A stretch of 64,000 nucleotides of DNA from the NCBI RefSeq assembly GCF_051903065.1, contig NZ_CP178438.1; one strand, written 5' to 3'. The stretch comes from Escherichia coli. Its GTDB lineage: Bacteria; Pseudomonadota; Gammaproteobacteria; Enterobacterales; Enterobacteriaceae. Shown in pieces: positions 36,001 to 45,000 of the stretch. A program made the position numbers. Within the stretch, counting starts at the first letter, position 1, and the number at the start of each line of letters is the position of its first letter.

Positions 36001-39000
36001 TTCGGATCCATAAACAACTGACCGGGGCGCATAGGGATCTCACGCAGCTCCACATCCCAGTAGCGGGCGAATTTATGCCAGCAGATTTGCACCGGACCGC
36101 ACACCAGGTTTGGTTTATCCGTTGGTTTGCCTGCAGCTTCCATACGCTTGCGCCAACGCCATTTCATCGCCATCCCGCCGAGCATACAGGCCTCGGAAGA
36201 ACCAATGGTGTTGGTGCCAACGGCCTGACCATTTTTCGGCGCAGGCGCATGCCACAGATCGGCAACCATATTTACGCAACGCAGGTCGATGGCTGCGGAT
36301 TGCGGATATTCTTCTTTGTCGATCCAGTTTTTGTTAATGGATAAATCCATCAACTTGTGGACATTTTCGTCGTCCCAGGTCTGGCAGAAAGTGGCCAGGT
36401 TCTGACGAGCGTTGCCATCAAGATATAATTCGTCATTGATAATCTGAAATGCGACATCGTCGCGCATTTCGTGCAGCGGAAAACGTTTTGATTCTGCGAT
36501 AGTGGAAATAGACTTCGCACCAAAACGTGAATCGAGTAGTTCCGACCTTAAATCCGTTACTTGCTTCTTATCCATTTTAAACTCCTTAAAATGATTGGAT
36601 CGCATTAAAAAAGTAGGATTTATCGATAAAGTAAGCAAGTGCAAAGGACTCGTGTTTAAATAACAAAATCCTAATGTTATTTATCGTGAGATATTGCGTG
36701 AATAATATTTTTTCATTGAAAAACAATATAGTAGGGAGCTCTTGGGTGGTGGTAAGGTGTTTTATGCTGTTATTTTTATGCGCTTTCTTTGCCTCCTGAA
36801 TTATCACGTAAAAATCAGACCTTAAAATATCACTATTAGTACTTGGTTATTATTTTGAACGCATTTATAAAATTATTACATAAAAATAGCGAATATTGCT
36901 AAAATCCCCGCCAACGATGTGTTGACGGGGCTGTTATTATTTTGGCAATAATACTCCGGTATAGGTATTTACCGGATGAGAAAGATATTGTTTAACGGCA
37001 GTGTTAACATTCTCTACCGTCATTTGTTTCAACAATTGCTCCTGCTCAGCCCATGCTGCAGGATCGTCATATTGAATAAGACTATTTACAATAGTGTTCG
37101 CTAATTGTTGAACGCTACGCTGTTGGATATCGAGGCTGCGCTGAACGTTTTGCTGGTATTCGTTCAGTTCTTGCTCACTGATCCCCTTAGTCAAACGCTT
37201 AACCATCACTTCATTCGCTAACGTTAACAGTTCATCATGTCGTTCTGGTTGACAAGTAAAAGCCAGCAAATGACTGATATCTTTGGCCTGAGGATCAACC
37301 GAGAGGCGAGAAGAAACGCTGTATGCCCCAGATGCCTGTTCACGAATATTAACGCGTAGATCTTTTGCCAGTGCGACGTTAAAAGCATCGAGCGCCATAC
37401 GCGTCGCCAGATTAACAGGTGTCCGGGAATCATAACGCTTCCACTGTGAAACCTGTGCCACAGGTTCATTTTGTTCCTTTACAGTAACCGATGCGTTGTC
37501 CGTCGCGCGAGTTAATGGTTTACCTGCGGCTAATGGCGAATCAGAGTGTTTGATTGATCCTAAGTAACGCGTAATTAACGCCACGAGTTTGTCTTCTGCG
37601 ACATTACCGACAATGACAAACGTGATATCCGCTGGAGATGAAAACAACTGGCGATCGGCAGCCAGCGCATCTGCGGCAGTAAACTGTGCAATCTGATTTT
37701 CTTGCAGTAATTTCGTGCGGTCATCAGCATAGCGCGTCTCATACATCTGCTGGGCGAATTTCTCCGCTGGACGCTGGTCGAGCGTTTTCAACGCCTGAAT
37801 TTGAGCATTTTGTAGCGATGCCCAAATATTGTCGTTAATCGTGCTGTGGGTGATTCGCTGGTTAATCAACTGAAAACCAGGTTCAGGGTTATTAGTCCGC
37901 GCGCTAACGGAGAGCAACGTATTCATGCCACTGACTTTACTGCTCATGGTTACCGAGTTTTCCGCACTCCAGCGTTTCAGGCTGGAAGAGGAGAGTTCGC
38001 CAACGCCGCTTCCGCTAACTGCTTTATTTGCCAGCGCGATAAGTGATTTTTGCTGCGCAGGGAAACTTAAATCGCCTTTATTCGATACGGCAATAATTTG
38101 TAGCTTTTGCTCTTCACCCGCGGATTTTGCCAGAATAACCCTGGCACCATTGGAAAGTGTTAATGATGTCAGATTCTCAGCCAGCGTTTCTTTGCTGCTA
38201 ATTTCCGCCTGTGGGTCAGCGTCTACTGTTAACGATAAATTTCTGCCTGGGAAGATGTAAGCCGCCAGCTTTTTGTTGGCGTACTCTTTTTCCAGCGCCA
38301 GGATAGCCGCAGGAGACAATGCTTTTTTGGCGGCAAGCTCATTGTTTACCATTTGCTCCCAAAATGCGTCCTGGTTCTTTCTTAACTGCTGCCATTTTTC
38401 CGCCAGACTTTGCACGGTAATTTGCTGCCACAGACGTTTCGAAAGTTGATATGTCTCTTCCGGCGACAAGAACGGCGTATTATTTAATGAGCTTGATGCC
38501 AGGCGACTGGTCAGCATACGTAAATCACGTTCAGCTTGCTGATCAACCGCATTTTTCAGCCAGGTGAGGCGGGTAGATTTGACATCATCGAGTTCTTCAG
38601 CAGAAAAACCATGCTGATCAATGGCTGTTAACTCTGCCATTAATGCATTCGCAGCATCCTGCATATTATCGTCTCGTGCATTTACACGGAAAAACAGCGA
38701 CTGATAATCGGGTGCAATTTTAACGCTGCGCGCAGTGCCGCCAGAAATAGTCTTCAACTCGCCCGACTGTATGCGTTCCTGCAGACGTTGATTGAACAGC
38801 TGAACTAACATGCTCCATTCAGCTTGTTCGATAAAGCTTTGCTCATCGTTCACTTGTACCATTGGCAGGCGATAATAGAGTGCGATGCCGTTCACCCGGT
38901 TTTCTTTATCATTAATGATATTAAAGCGCAGGTGATTTTCGGCTTTTGTCGGCCAGACGCGATTTTCAGCTGCTTTGTTAGCTGGAAGCTTACTTAAATT

Positions 39001-42000: not shown

Positions 42001-45000
42001 GTGTAATGCGTGTTGCCGTTTACGGGTACAGGGACAGGAGCATAGACCGTCATCTCTTCAAAAACATGCATGTACATGTTTTTGTCATCGACGGCCTGCG
42101 CCACATCAGCGCCACATAAAATGACGCCAGGAATAAGAACTCGCTTCATTTATTTATATCTCCGTACAGCAGGGCTTTTATTGTTTTTATAAAACCGCGC
42201 TAATGTCACAAATATCATCTGCCAGGTTCCAGACACCGGGTTGATGTGTAACCATAATGACGCCGCTTGTGGGTAGTTTTTCACGCACTAAACGCAGTAA
42301 GCGGATAGCCTCTTGTTCCTCAAGATGAGAGGTAGTTTCGTCAAGAAATATCCATTTCGGACGTCGTAAAATTAATCGTGCCAGGGCGATACGTTGTTTT
42401 TCGCCGCTGGAAAGAATATCTCCCCAGCGATCGTGGTCATGAATACGCGCAGCCAATTTCCCCAGACCAACCTGATGCAGTACTTCGCTCAACGATTTAT
42501 CGTCTACGAGCAGGGGAAGTGCTTTACAAATAATCTCTTTCAGTAAGCCGCTTTTGATTAACGGTGTTTGTGACACATACCAACTGTCAGCAGGAGAAGA
42601 AATATCACCTTTAAACCACGGCCAGCAGTGGGATAATGTTTTAAGCAGTGTGGTTTTTCCCGCACCAGAGTAACCTTTCAGTAATAGCCATTTGCCTGGC
42701 GAAACATGAAAGTTCAGGTTCTCTAATATGATCTTATTATCAGGCGTACGAATACTCGCATCAGCCACTTGTACCGCATGTTGGCAATTTTTAGGCTTAT
42801 TCGTAGGGCGCTGTTCAGTGAGTTGATGGAACTCATACAAGCGATCGATAACCGCAGCCAGTTCAGCAAGTTCGTCATATTTATAGATAAACCAGCTTAA
42901 ATTGTTCGATACCAGCATAAATGCCTGGCGCGATTTCATCAGTCCGCCCAGATTGATCTGCCCGCTAATAAACTGCGGCAATAACAGAAAGTAGGGAAGA
43001 ACGCTAAGCGAGCGCGAATAAATATTTTGCCAGTAATCAAGCCACCGCTGACGATTCATTAAACGATGCCAGTTCTCTTTAATGGTATGAAAATTGTCGC
43101 TCAACTCCTGGCGTTGTAGAGACTCAGCATTGCTTAGCGCAATCAGTTCAGCCTGCTTATTATGCTGCACAAGATTTGTTCGAAATGTCGCTTCGCTACG
43201 TTGTTTTTCCACATTAAGCGGACGAATACGTTTACCAACCTTATGGGTAAATAAAGTTCCACCGATCACAATGAGCACAACGGTATAGACCATATACCCC
43301 TGGATATTCCATTCTGTTCCACCAACAGTGAATGAGAGCGTACCCGCGCTTTGCCAAAGAATAACGGTAAAGGTGATCAGCATGCTAAGTGACTGGATGA
43401 AGCCAAATGAAAGACTGAGCGTTTTGCTGATCAGTAAGAGAATGTCTTCAGCGATACGTTGGTCAGGGTTATCTGTATTTTTATGCTCGCCGTAGATCTG
43501 CGTGAAGTAGTAGTTTTTATCTGCAAACCAGCGATTAAGGTAGTAATCTGTTAACCATTCGCGCCAGCGAATAGTCAGCAGTTTAATTAACCATGTTTTG
43601 TTTACGGATATTAATACAAAGATCCCCAGCAGGGCAGGGAACCAAAGGACAAGCTGCCAAAGCTTATCGGTTTCTTTCTGGCTTAGCGCATTGAAAAAAT
43701 CATTATTCCAGTCGTTTAACCAGACCTGAATTTTAACCACGCCAAGGATCATGGCGAGGATAATAATGATTAACAACACTGAAGTTTTATTATTCTTACG
43801 CAGCCAAAAGGGCTTCAGCAGACAGAGATACTTTGCTATCAACATACAAAACGTAATGGGAATGGTTATCATTAGCGAAAATTGATTGTGCCATCCAATG
43901 ATTATCTATGGCAATGATTTACTGATGAAATTTATTTAAGTATCATTTAACAATATGAAATATATAGAAATTTTTAATTTTCAGTGGTTATGGTTATGCT
44001 ATTGATAATCAAGGATATTGCTAATGCCCTGACGCATACCACGTATGCCAGGATTTTCGCAAGGGAAGATGATGATGACGAAACACCCAACAGGAATTTA
44101 TGTCGGGTGTCTTGTTAAGGCCATAAGAAGGAGGCTAAGACTGGAGCAAAGAGGGCGTGTTATTAATTATTCTCCATTTGTTTTGCAACTTCTGGAATAA
44201 TTCAGGCAAGAAAGTTTCTGTTAGCGGAATACCATCCTGAGCATCAGTATTGGAATAGACACCAAAGCGTGCGGGCGCTCGACCGGTCATTATTGCGGCG
44301 CGGGAGGGGCCGGAAACACCGTGTGCCACATAGCCGTTAGTAAAACGTACGCCTTCATCCATTAATGAAAGGAGCGTCGGCGTTGATTTTTGTGCAGCTT
44401 CAATGGCTTTATCTATCCCTATTTTGTAGGTATCGACAACTTCACGATTTTCCATTGTTTTTGGGTCAAAAGATCCCTTATCAAAAGGAAGTTGTCCATA
44501 ACCAAGATCATCCATGGTTAGTACGATAATATTTGGCTTTCCTTTGGTACTGTATTCAGTCGGCGTAAAGTCTGAGAAAGCAACGTTTGTTTTGGTTGCT
44601 TTCAGCTTTACATCATCTGCCGCATGAGCAGCAAATGCAGCCATACCAGATGCCAGTATCAAAGATATCGAGGTACTTACGACACTTTTCTTTAATGCAG
44701 ACTTCATAAATGTTCCTCTTCTTATTGTACTTAATTCCAAAGTAATTTTACGAAGAGAAATAAGTGGATGTAAGTGAAGTTAGTCACATAAAGAGATAGC
44801 AGATTTAGCTAAAAAAAGGGAAATAACAGTCCATAAAGCGTTGACATTACTTTCTGTTCTACTAAGTAATTTCTCGCCGATAAACAACTAATATATTGAT
44901 ATTTAATAAATTATTGTATTTTACTGACAAAATGCCGAATTGAGATCATAAATAATCATGCAACAGGTTATGCAAATGCATAAATATGTGATGAATGTCA

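What the first reader, a model, noticed from the sequence alone, without database searches (positions are those of the whole stretch)
36937..43925. yddA-yddB-pqqL: ABC exporter, TonB-dependent transporter and M16 peptidase in one operon with a possible Fur site
Three co-directional genes with 37-44 bp spacers pair an outer-membrane TonB-dependent transporter with a periplasmic M16 protease, the architecture described for protease-associated import systems. AATGAT-type hexamers directly upstream of yddA resemble a Fur box, which would tie the operon to iron limitation.
Basis: partly seen in the sequence, partly recalled or inferred. Interest (0 to 1): 0.3.

Follow-up and report, generated by a model that had tools for sequence, protein, structure and literature searches.

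The report
Known Fur-controlled yddA-yddB-pqqL import operon
This is the well-studied E. coli yddA-yddB-pqqL operon, an iron-regulated outer-membrane transporter, periplasmic protease and inner-membrane ABC transporter set; its Fur site and its "protease-associated import" architecture are already published, so the finding is correct but ordinary.

Summary
On the minus strand lie yddA (43872-42187), yddB (42149-39777) and pqqL (39732-36937), with 37- and 44-bp spacers. All three genes are intact, and the DNA is 100% identical to an E. coli chromosome. A Fur matrix I built from 16 published K-12 sites, leaving yddA out, gives 19.3 bits at 43855-43873. That is the best hit in the 64-kb window, with about 0.01 such hits expected by chance, and the site overlaps the yddA ATG.

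All of this is published. Chen 2007 reported 19.6 bits at +8. Subashchandrabose 2013 showed co-transcription, de-repression in a fur mutant and a fitness role in infection. Beauchene 2015 reports Fur bound upstream. Grinter 2016 and 2019 described YddB, PqqL and YddA as homologues of FusA, FusC and FusD, with crystal structures 6OFR and 6OFS.

One correction is needed. YddA has the exporter fold, but its closest characterised relatives (Rv1819c, B. cepacia YddA) are importers, so "ABC exporter" is probably the wrong functional label. The substrate is still unknown.

Verdict: already known, low interest.

The parts
42187..43872 (-). yddA: fused type IV ABC transporter of 561 aa, with a SbmA/BacA-like transmembrane domain followed by a nucleotide-binding domain (Walker A GYSGAGKT at residue 400)
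   Evidence: ORF. Pfam PF06472 at 1.4e-43, PF05992 at 4.8e-34, PF00005 at 8.9e-19. Best solved relative is Rv1819c, 6TQE, at 3.3e-67. Five substitutions relative to K-12.
39777..42149 (-). yddB: FusA-like TonB-dependent outer-membrane transporter of 790 aa, with a signal peptide, a TonB-box-like EEMTVYA at residues 31-37 and a C-terminal phenylalanine
   Evidence: ORF. Plug domain. Matches YddB crystal structure 6OFR at E=0; the next hit is the ferredoxin receptor FusA, 4ZGV, at 3.6e-80. N- and C-terminal features read from the translation.
36937..39732 (-). pqqL: periplasmic single-chain M16B zinc protease of 931 aa, with HFVEH at residues 80-84 and Glu167
   Evidence: ORF. Pfam M16 and M16_C. 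Matches PqqL structures 6OFS/6OFT at E=0 and FusC 6B03 at 4e-59. Motifs confirmed. The PqqF family model scores only 48.8 bits against a cut-off of 320.
43855..43873 (.). Primary Fur operator, AATGATAACCATTCCCATT on the gene strand, overlapping the annotated yddA ATG (43872-43870)
   Evidence: 19.3 bits with a matrix built from 16 K-12 Fur sites that excludes yddA. It is the top hit of the window, ahead of 14.7 bits. P=1.5e-7 per position, 0.0096 expected per 64 kb, and 6 of 200 shuffles reach it. Invariant in 7 diverse E. coli strains. Published as 19.6 bits at +8 (PMC2189734) and as GGGAATGGTTATCATTAG (PMC3855560).
43861..43879 (.). Secondary overlapping Fur site, offset by 6 bp from the primary site (the two-dimer arrangement)
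   Evidence: 6.2 bits. Chen 2007 lists a 2-site, 25-bp cluster at yddA.
43897..43915 (.).
   Evidence: 3.7 bits, with about 16 sites of that score expected per 64 kb. Hexamers at 43897 and 43913.
43885..43914 (-). Candidate sigma-70 promoter: -35 TTGCCA at 43914-43909, an 18-nt spacer, and a TG-extended -10 CACAAT at 43890-43885. This would place the transcription start near 43878 and the Fur operator at about +1 to +24.
   Evidence: Consensus scan, 9 of 12 matches. The number of such matches in the region is not above chance (16 found, 15.2 expected). The block from -83 to +21 is nearly invariant among 7 strains. The assignment is an inference only.
36901..36930 (-). Intrinsic-terminator-like hairpin (10-bp stem followed by AUUUU), beginning 7 bases after the last base of the pqqL stop codon; the likely 3' end of the operon
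   Evidence: Folding energy -18.6 kcal/mol, z = -5.1, and 0 of 200 shuffles fold as well.

Best explanation
This is the E. coli chromosomal yddA-yddB-pqqL operon. It is a Fur-repressed protease-associated import system homologous to the Pectobacterium ferredoxin-uptake (Fus) system.

Shown here or in print:
- The three genes are intact, tightly spaced and co-transcribed.
- A strong Fur operator overlaps the yddA start. When iron is plentiful, Fe2+-Fur sits on or just downstream of the promoter and keeps expression low. Loss of Fur raises the transcripts, and iron chelation raises PqqL protein.
[quoted passage not shown] Inferred:
- YddB, energised by the cell's general TonB because no dedicated TonB gene is present, imports a specific and still unidentified host protein or large peptide.
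- PqqL cuts that cargo in the periplasm.
- YddA has the exporter fold, but its nearest characterised relatives are importers. It probably carries the released cofactor or peptide fragments into the cytoplasm.
For: Gene identity and integrity. Fur operator: 19.3 bits, the best hit in 64 kb, with 0.01 expected by chance; invariant in 7 divergent strains although the surrounding 411 bp is only about 95-98% identical between strains. Published Fur evidence: an information-theory score of 19.6 bits (PMC2189734); de-repression in a fur mutant, RT-PCR co-transcription and more than 30-fold induction in urine (PMC3855560); Fur bound upstream (PMC4676285); a Fur box detected computationally in a study of serum-induced genes (PMC4145685); yddA listed in the Fur-2 iModulon (PMC10164565). 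Homology to Fus: YddB matches 6OFR and then FusA at 3.6e-80; PqqL matches 6OFS and then FusC at 4e-59; yddA is described as a FusD homologue (PMC5095587). Periplasmic location, protease activity and bipyridine induction of PqqL: PMC6793856. Importer inference for YddA: the best solved relative is Rv1819c at 3.3e-67, followed by the ABCD family including the cobalamin transporter ABCD4; YddA groups with the BclA peptide importers, and SbmA probably derives from a YddA-like ancestor (PMC13316013); B. cepacia YddA is required for uptake of the lasso peptide ubonodin (bioRxiv 10.1101/2022.03.09.483586). A terminator-like hairpin follows pqqL.
Against: The substrate is unknown. PqqL did not cleave human or plant ferredoxins or globins. 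Deletion of yddB or pqqL caused no growth defect in iron-limited LB, even in a strain lacking the other iron-uptake TonB-dependent transporters. In CFT073, dipyridyl alone did not raise the transcripts, so iron may not be the only signal, and perhaps not the main one. Chen 2007 noted that the Fur cluster does not overlap a strong promoter and suggested that repression may be weak. No transcription-start data were available to me, and the promoter I name is a match no better than chance. The transport direction of YddA has never been measured. The 2026 SbmA paper still calls E. coli YddA 'of unknown function'.
Confidence: 0.85

Rival explanations
1. YddA is a true exporter, for example of a drug, a peptide or a siderophore-like compound. 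In that case it is merely co-transcribed with the YddB/PqqL uptake pair, or it secretes a factor that YddB later takes back up.
For: YddA has the type IV (exporter) fold, and many of its PDB and NCBIfam hits are exporters such as CydDC, P-gp and type I secretion ABC proteins. One paper's table labels yddAB a 'multidrug transporter'.
Against: The exporter hits align mainly to the nucleotide-binding domain. The transmembrane domain matches SbmA_BacA and ABC_membrane_2. The full-length best hit is the importer Rv1819c. B. cepacia YddA and the BclA proteins import peptides. Linkage of FusD/YddA homologues to FusA and FusC is maintained despite gene rearrangement.
Confidence: 0.12
2. The system does not primarily acquire iron. 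Instead it imports and degrades a host or microbial protein or peptide for another purpose, such as obtaining another nutrient, neutralising an antimicrobial peptide, or signalling. Fur would then be only one of several inputs.
For: There is no phenotype in iron-limited LB. Dipyridyl had no effect on transcripts in CFT073, whereas urine gave more than 30-fold induction. PqqL is inactive on ferredoxins and globins. Relatives of YddA carry peptides and other hydrophilic cargo. RyhB and O2 also affect expression.
Against: The Fur operator is strong and conserved. PqqL is induced by bipyridine in two strains. The characterised homologous system, Fus, is an iron-piracy system.
Confidence: 0.2
3. 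PqqL is a pyrroloquinoline-quinone (PQQ) biosynthesis protease, as its historical name implies.
For: The gene name itself, and an old report of complementation of Methylobacterium pqqE/F mutants, cited in PMC3855560. PqqL gives a weak match to the PqqF family model.
Against: The PqqF model scores 48.8 bits against a cut-off of 320. E. coli does not make PQQ. PqqL is periplasmic and structurally of the FusC type.
Confidence: 0.02
4. The Fur-like sequence is a chance product of an AT-rich leader and has no regulatory role.
For: The region is 72% A+T. The upstream hexamers score only 3.7 bits. Chen 2007 suggested that repression may be weak.
Against: A 19.3-bit site has P of about 1.8e-6 per position even against the local AT-rich composition. 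It is the best site in 64 kb and is invariant across strains. Published data show de-repression in a fur mutant and Fur binding upstream.
Confidence: 0.02

Closest known systems
E. coli K-12 / CFT073 yddA-yddB-pqqL operon (b1496-b1494); YddB structure 6OFR, PqqL structures 6OFS/6OFT; Grinter et al. 2019, PLoS Genet, 'Protease-associated import systems'
   Same: This is the same locus. The gene order, protein lengths (561, 790 and 931 aa), spacers and Fur box are identical, and there are only 5, 8 and 9 amino-acid substitutions relative to K-12.
   Different: Only strain-level differences were found. The control region is about 95% identical to K-12 over 389-411 bp. A 2,347-bp deletion of ydeM and the 3' part of ydeN ends 317 bp upstream of the yddA ATG.
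Pectobacterium ferredoxin uptake system FusB-FusA-FusC-FusD
   Same: Both combine a TonB-dependent transporter with a large external protein-binding site (FusA, 4ZGV, matches YddB at 3.6e-80), a single-chain periplasmic M16B protease (FusC, 6B03, matches PqqL at 4e-59), a fused ABC transporter (FusD and YddA, per PMC5095587) and iron-responsive expression.
   Different: No dedicated TonB homologue (FusB) is encoded next to the E. coli genes; the neighbours are gadB and a ydeN fragment. The gene order differs, with the ABC transporter first. PqqL does not cut plant or human ferredoxin, and the substrate is unknown. Published identity between YddB and FusA is only about 24%.
Rv1819c (M. tuberculosis; 6TQE/6TQF), the BclA proteins and B. 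cepacia YddA: importers with the type IV ABC 'exporter' fold
   Same: These are the closest characterised relatives of YddA across both the transmembrane and nucleotide-binding domains (3.3e-67, residues 35-552). They belong to the same YddA/BclA clade.
   Different: Those proteins are not encoded next to a TonB-dependent transporter and an M16 protease in the sources I read. The cargo and transport direction of E. coli YddA are untested.
Classical Fur-repressed siderophore receptor operons (fepA, fhuA, cirA, fecA)
   Same: All have a Fur operator of comparable strength; the left-out training sites score 14.3-28.2 bits and yddA scores 19.3. All encode a TonB-dependent transporter.
   Different: At yddA the operator overlaps the annotated start codon rather than a clear -35/-10 pair. 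The partner genes are a protease and an SbmA-like ABC transporter, not a periplasmic binding protein with a type II importer. Loss of the system gives no growth defect in iron-limited LB.

Membership tests
Protease-associated import system (Fus-like) | A FusA-family TonB-dependent outer-membrane transporter | tested here: met
   YddB carries a Plug domain. At E up to 0.001, its only PDB sequence relatives are YddB itself (6OFR) and the ferredoxin receptor FusA, 4ZGV, at 3.6e-80. It has a TonB-box-like EEMTVYA and a C-terminal Phe.
Protease-associated import system (Fus-like) | A FusC-type single-chain M16 protease with a signal peptide and an intact HxxEH...E active site, genetically linked to the transporter | tested here: met
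   PqqL matches 6OFS and then FusC 6B03 at 4e-59. HFVEH lies at residues 80-84 and Glu at 167, and the N-terminus is hydrophobic. The gene starts 44 bp downstream of yddB on the same strand.
Protease-associated import system (Fus-like) | A FusD-like fused ABC transporter in the cluster | tested here: inconclusive
   A fused transmembrane-plus-nucleotide-binding ABC gene is present 37 bp upstream of yddB. I did not retrieve a FusD sequence to compare. The homology statement comes from PMC5095587.
Protease-associated import system (Fus-like) | A dedicated TonB-like protein (FusB) in the cluster | tested here: not met
   No such ORF lies between gadB and the ydeN fragment. Grinter 2019 reports that the composition of these clusters varies, so this gene is not universal in the family.
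Protease-associated import system (Fus-like) | Import of a folded protein substrate and its cleavage in the periplasm | not testable with these tools
   The substrate has not been identified, and the candidates tested in vitro were negative.
E. coli Fur regulon (direct targets) | An operator that matches the Fur matrix at the strength of proven sites | tested here: met
   19.3 bits at 43855-43873, compared with 14.3-28.2 bits for 16 proven or published sites scored with each left out in turn. About 0.01 such hits are expected per 64 kb.
E. coli Fur regulon (direct targets) | Fur occupancy and Fur- or iron-dependent expression | not testable with these tools
   Literature only. Transcripts rise in a fur mutant, Fur is bound upstream, and PqqL protein rises with bipyridine. 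Dipyridyl had no effect on transcripts in CFT073.
   The top full-length solved relative is the importer Rv1819c. The transmembrane domain matches SbmA_BacA. Members of the same clade import peptides. Only the fold class (type IV) is of the 'exporter' type.
PqqF (PQQ biosynthesis protease) | A score at or above the NCBIfam TIGR02110 cut-off | tested here: not met
   48.8 bits against a cut-off of 320.

The most novel reading that the evidence does not exclude
YddA may import PqqL-generated peptide fragments, possibly still carrying a metal cofactor, through an SbmA-like cavity rather than importing a free iron species. Fur would then be only a gate, with a second, urine- or serum-specific signal needed for full induction. 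That would make the operon a host-protein or peptide piracy route whose cargo is still to be found, and it could also serve as an entry route for peptide antibiotics.
Probability: 0.25. Interest if true: 0.5.

Novelty: already known. Interest (0 to 1): 0.1.

Why it matters
The operon contributes to the fitness of uropathogenic E. coli in systemic infection, and it is one of the two archetypes for protein import through TonB-dependent transporters. The finding adds nothing to what is published. The open questions remain the substrate, the transport direction of YddA, and the reason chelation and urine give different induction. None of these can be settled from sequence alone.

Tried and rejected
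- A plain scan with the 19-bp consensus GATAATGATAATCATTATC gave only a tie: 4 mismatches at 43858 and also at 57820. I replaced it with a matrix aligned on the published site centres.
- My first attempt to build the matrix failed because loci are stored several to a file.
- The promoter and terminator scan found no more sites than expected by chance, and it missed the hairpin after pqqL because the U-run after that hairpin does not meet the scan's tail rule (at least 5 T in 8 bases). Direct folding recovered the hairpin.
- Rfam found no known RNA family in 36000-45000.
- No NCBIfam family reached its cut-off for any of the three proteins.
- I considered retrieving Fus loci from other genera to test FusD homology and Fur-box conservation across genera. 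I decided the large shared-database scans were not justified for a locus that is already characterised.
- I considered whether the hairpin in the yddB-pqqL spacer is an attenuator. Its energy is not unusual (z = -1.8), and RT-PCR shows read-through.
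Full report
**Observation.** The window is E. coli chromosome. Bases 36800-44200 are 100% identical to strain 23CRST027, and 5,410 of 5,426 complete genomes contain a match. On the minus strand lie three ORFs: yddA at 43872-42187 (561 aa), yddB at 42149-39777 (790 aa) and pqqL at 39732-36937 (931 aa). The spacers between them are 37 and 44 bp. The protein lengths equal those in K-12, with 5, 8 and 9 substitutions respectively and no frameshifts. Pfam assigns YddA an ABC_membrane_2 / SbmA_BacA transmembrane domain plus an ABC ATPase, YddB a TonB-dependent Plug domain, and PqqL the Peptidase_M16 and M16_C domains. A strong hairpin followed by AUUUU begins 7 bases after the pqqL stop codon (36930-36901; -18.6 kcal/mol, z = -5.1). 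It is the likely end of the operon.

**Fur site.** No ready-made Fur matrix was available, so I built one.
- I took the genome coordinates of 16 strong Fur sites from Table 4 of Chen et al. 2007 (PMC2189734).
- I converted them to NC_000913.3 coordinates and fetched the DNA.
- The 19-mers centred on those coordinates all show the AATGATAATnATTATCATT pattern.
- The matrix was made symmetric, and yddA was left out of it.

The best hit in the whole 64-kb window is 19.3 bits at 43855-43873. On the gene strand it reads AATGATAACCATTCCCATT, and it overlaps the annotated ATG at 43872-43870. The next best hit in the window scores 14.7 bits. When each training site is left out in turn, the 16 sites score 14.3-28.2 bits, so yddA falls within the range of proven sites. 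The chance probability is 1.5e-7 per position, which gives 0.0096 expected hits per 64 kb. Six of 200 dinucleotide-preserving shuffles of the window reached 19.3 bits. Against the local AT-rich composition the probability is still 1.8e-6 per position.

A second site of 6.2 bits lies 6 bp upstream at 43861-43879, which is the spacing of a two-dimer arrangement. Four AATGAT/ATCATT copies lie in 43868-43947, the densest 100 bp in the window, and none of 5000 composition-matched shuffles equalled that count.

The box is also conserved. The 411-bp control region is unusually polymorphic for E. coli, with most genomes 95-99% identical to this one. In seven diverse strains, however, the stretch from -83 to +21 is almost invariant and the box itself never changes.

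**What is already published.**
- Chen 2007 scored the same site at 19.6 bits, at +8 from the yddA start.
- Subashchandrabose 2013 printed the box as GGGAATGGTTATCATTAG. They showed by RT-PCR that the three genes are co-transcribed, found them induced more than 30-fold in urine and de-repressed in a fur mutant, and showed that yddB and pqqL contribute to fitness in systemic infection. Dipyridyl alone did not induce the transcripts in CFT073.
- Beauchene 2015 lists yddAB-pqqL among operons bound upstream by Fur, and reports that its RNA level is raised by RyhB.
- Huja 2014 found a Fur box at yddA computationally, among serum-induced genes.
- Grinter 2016 called YddB, PqqL and YddA homologues of FusA, FusC and FusD.
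- Grinter 2019 solved the YddB and PqqL structures. They showed that PqqL is periplasmic, active, and induced by bipyridine and by urine, and they coined the term 'protease-associated import systems'.

My PDB sequence searches agree with this picture. YddB matches 6OFR and then FusA 4ZGV at 3.6e-80. PqqL matches 6OFS/6OFT and then FusC 6B03 at 4e-59.

**Mechanism.** The shown steps are the Fur operator, co-transcription, periplasmic protease activity and the FusA-like transporter structure. The inferred steps are these:
- YddB, powered by the housekeeping TonB because no fusB-like gene is present, imports a specific protein.
- PqqL cuts that protein in the periplasm.
- YddA moves the product into the cytoplasm.

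The best full-length solved relative of YddA is Rv1819c at 3.3e-67, followed by the ABCD family, which includes the cobalamin transporter ABCD4. A 2026 phylogeny places YddA with the BclA peptide importers and derives SbmA from a YddA-like ancestor, while noting that the function of E. coli YddA is unknown. B. cepacia YddA is needed for uptake of the lasso peptide ubonodin.

How Fur blocks transcription is uncertain. One candidate promoter has a -35 TTGCCA at 43914-43909 and a TG-extended -10 CACAAT at 43890-43885. It would start transcription near 43878, just upstream of the operator, but promoter-like matches in this region are no more frequent than chance.

**Caveats to the iron-piracy model.** The substrate is unknown. 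PqqL did not cut human or plant ferredoxins or globins. Mutants grow normally in iron-limited LB. Chelation and urine give different induction in CFT073. A December 2025 review of M16 proteases still lists no substrate for PqqL.

**Comparison and novelty.** This is the same locus as the published one. It is neither a new member nor a new variant of a known kind. It differs from the Pectobacterium Fus system in gene order, in lacking a dedicated TonB gene and in its substrate. The historical reading of PqqL as a PQQ-synthesis protease fails, because the PqqF family model scores 48.8 bits against a cut-off of 320. No known RNA family lies in the region.

**Verdict.** The finding is already known and of low interest.

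Noticed in passing
window 44189/44190 (upstream of yddA); ydeN fragment 44138-44740: Relative to K-12, this strain has a 2,347-bp deletion (K-12 1,579,660-1,582,006). It removes all but the last 27 nt of ydeM and the 3' two-thirds of ydeN, and ends 317 bp upstream of the yddA ATG. Among the ten records listed, only strains 23CRST027 and 23CRST031 match without interruption across the junction; a third, ECNB21-M121, stops 8 bases short in two pieces with an IS1A element. The yddA control region itself is left intact.
   Followed up: partly
L020 (E. coli LF82) 6001-7295; whole-operon query: The operon is not universal in E. coli. In LF82 a deletion removes the control region, yddA, yddB and the 5' part of pqqL, leaving a pqqL pseudogene next to ydeM. 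About 15% of complete genomes lack at least 80% coverage of the operon (4,602 of 5,426 have it), and 643 genomes have no match to the yddA control region.
   Followed up: partly
window 43851-43846 (yddA codons 8-9) and 43845-43843 (Met10): In the 7-strain alignment, the only variable positions from -10 to +64 are the first bases of codons 8 and 9. Both changes are non-synonymous (F/L and C/R). The true start codon may therefore be Met10, which would put the Fur box in the 5' untranslated region. Neither ATG has a recognisable Shine-Dalgarno sequence.
   Followed up: partly
window 44075-44200 (+): A small ORF equivalent to K-12 yneP (annotated here as a hypothetical protein) diverges from the 202-bp yddA control region. 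Its 3' end crosses the deletion junction, so its C-terminus differs from the K-12 form.
   Followed up: no
window 20937-20955, 56217-56235, 10868-10886: These are the next-best Fur-matrix hits in the window. The first scores 14.7 bits in the bdm-osmC intergenic region. The second scores 14.5 bits just downstream of hipA. The third scores 13.8 bits upstream of the porin gene at 9642-10742. About 0.17 hits of at least 14.3 bits are expected per 64 kb.
   Followed up: no
window 39738-39759 (-), yddB-pqqL spacer: The 44-bp spacer holds an 8-bp hairpin followed by UUUUCGC (-12.8 kcal/mol, z = -1.8, which is not unusual). It could modulate the yddB:pqqL expression ratio, although RT-PCR shows read-through. 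RefSeq places the pqqL start four codons downstream of the K-12 start.
   Followed up: partly
window 37000-44000: The operon is 45-47% G+C and the control region about 39-40%, whereas the neighbouring gadB region is about 54%. This is compatible with the patchy taxonomic distribution reported for FusA homologues, which are absent from Salmonella and Citrobacter.
   Followed up: no
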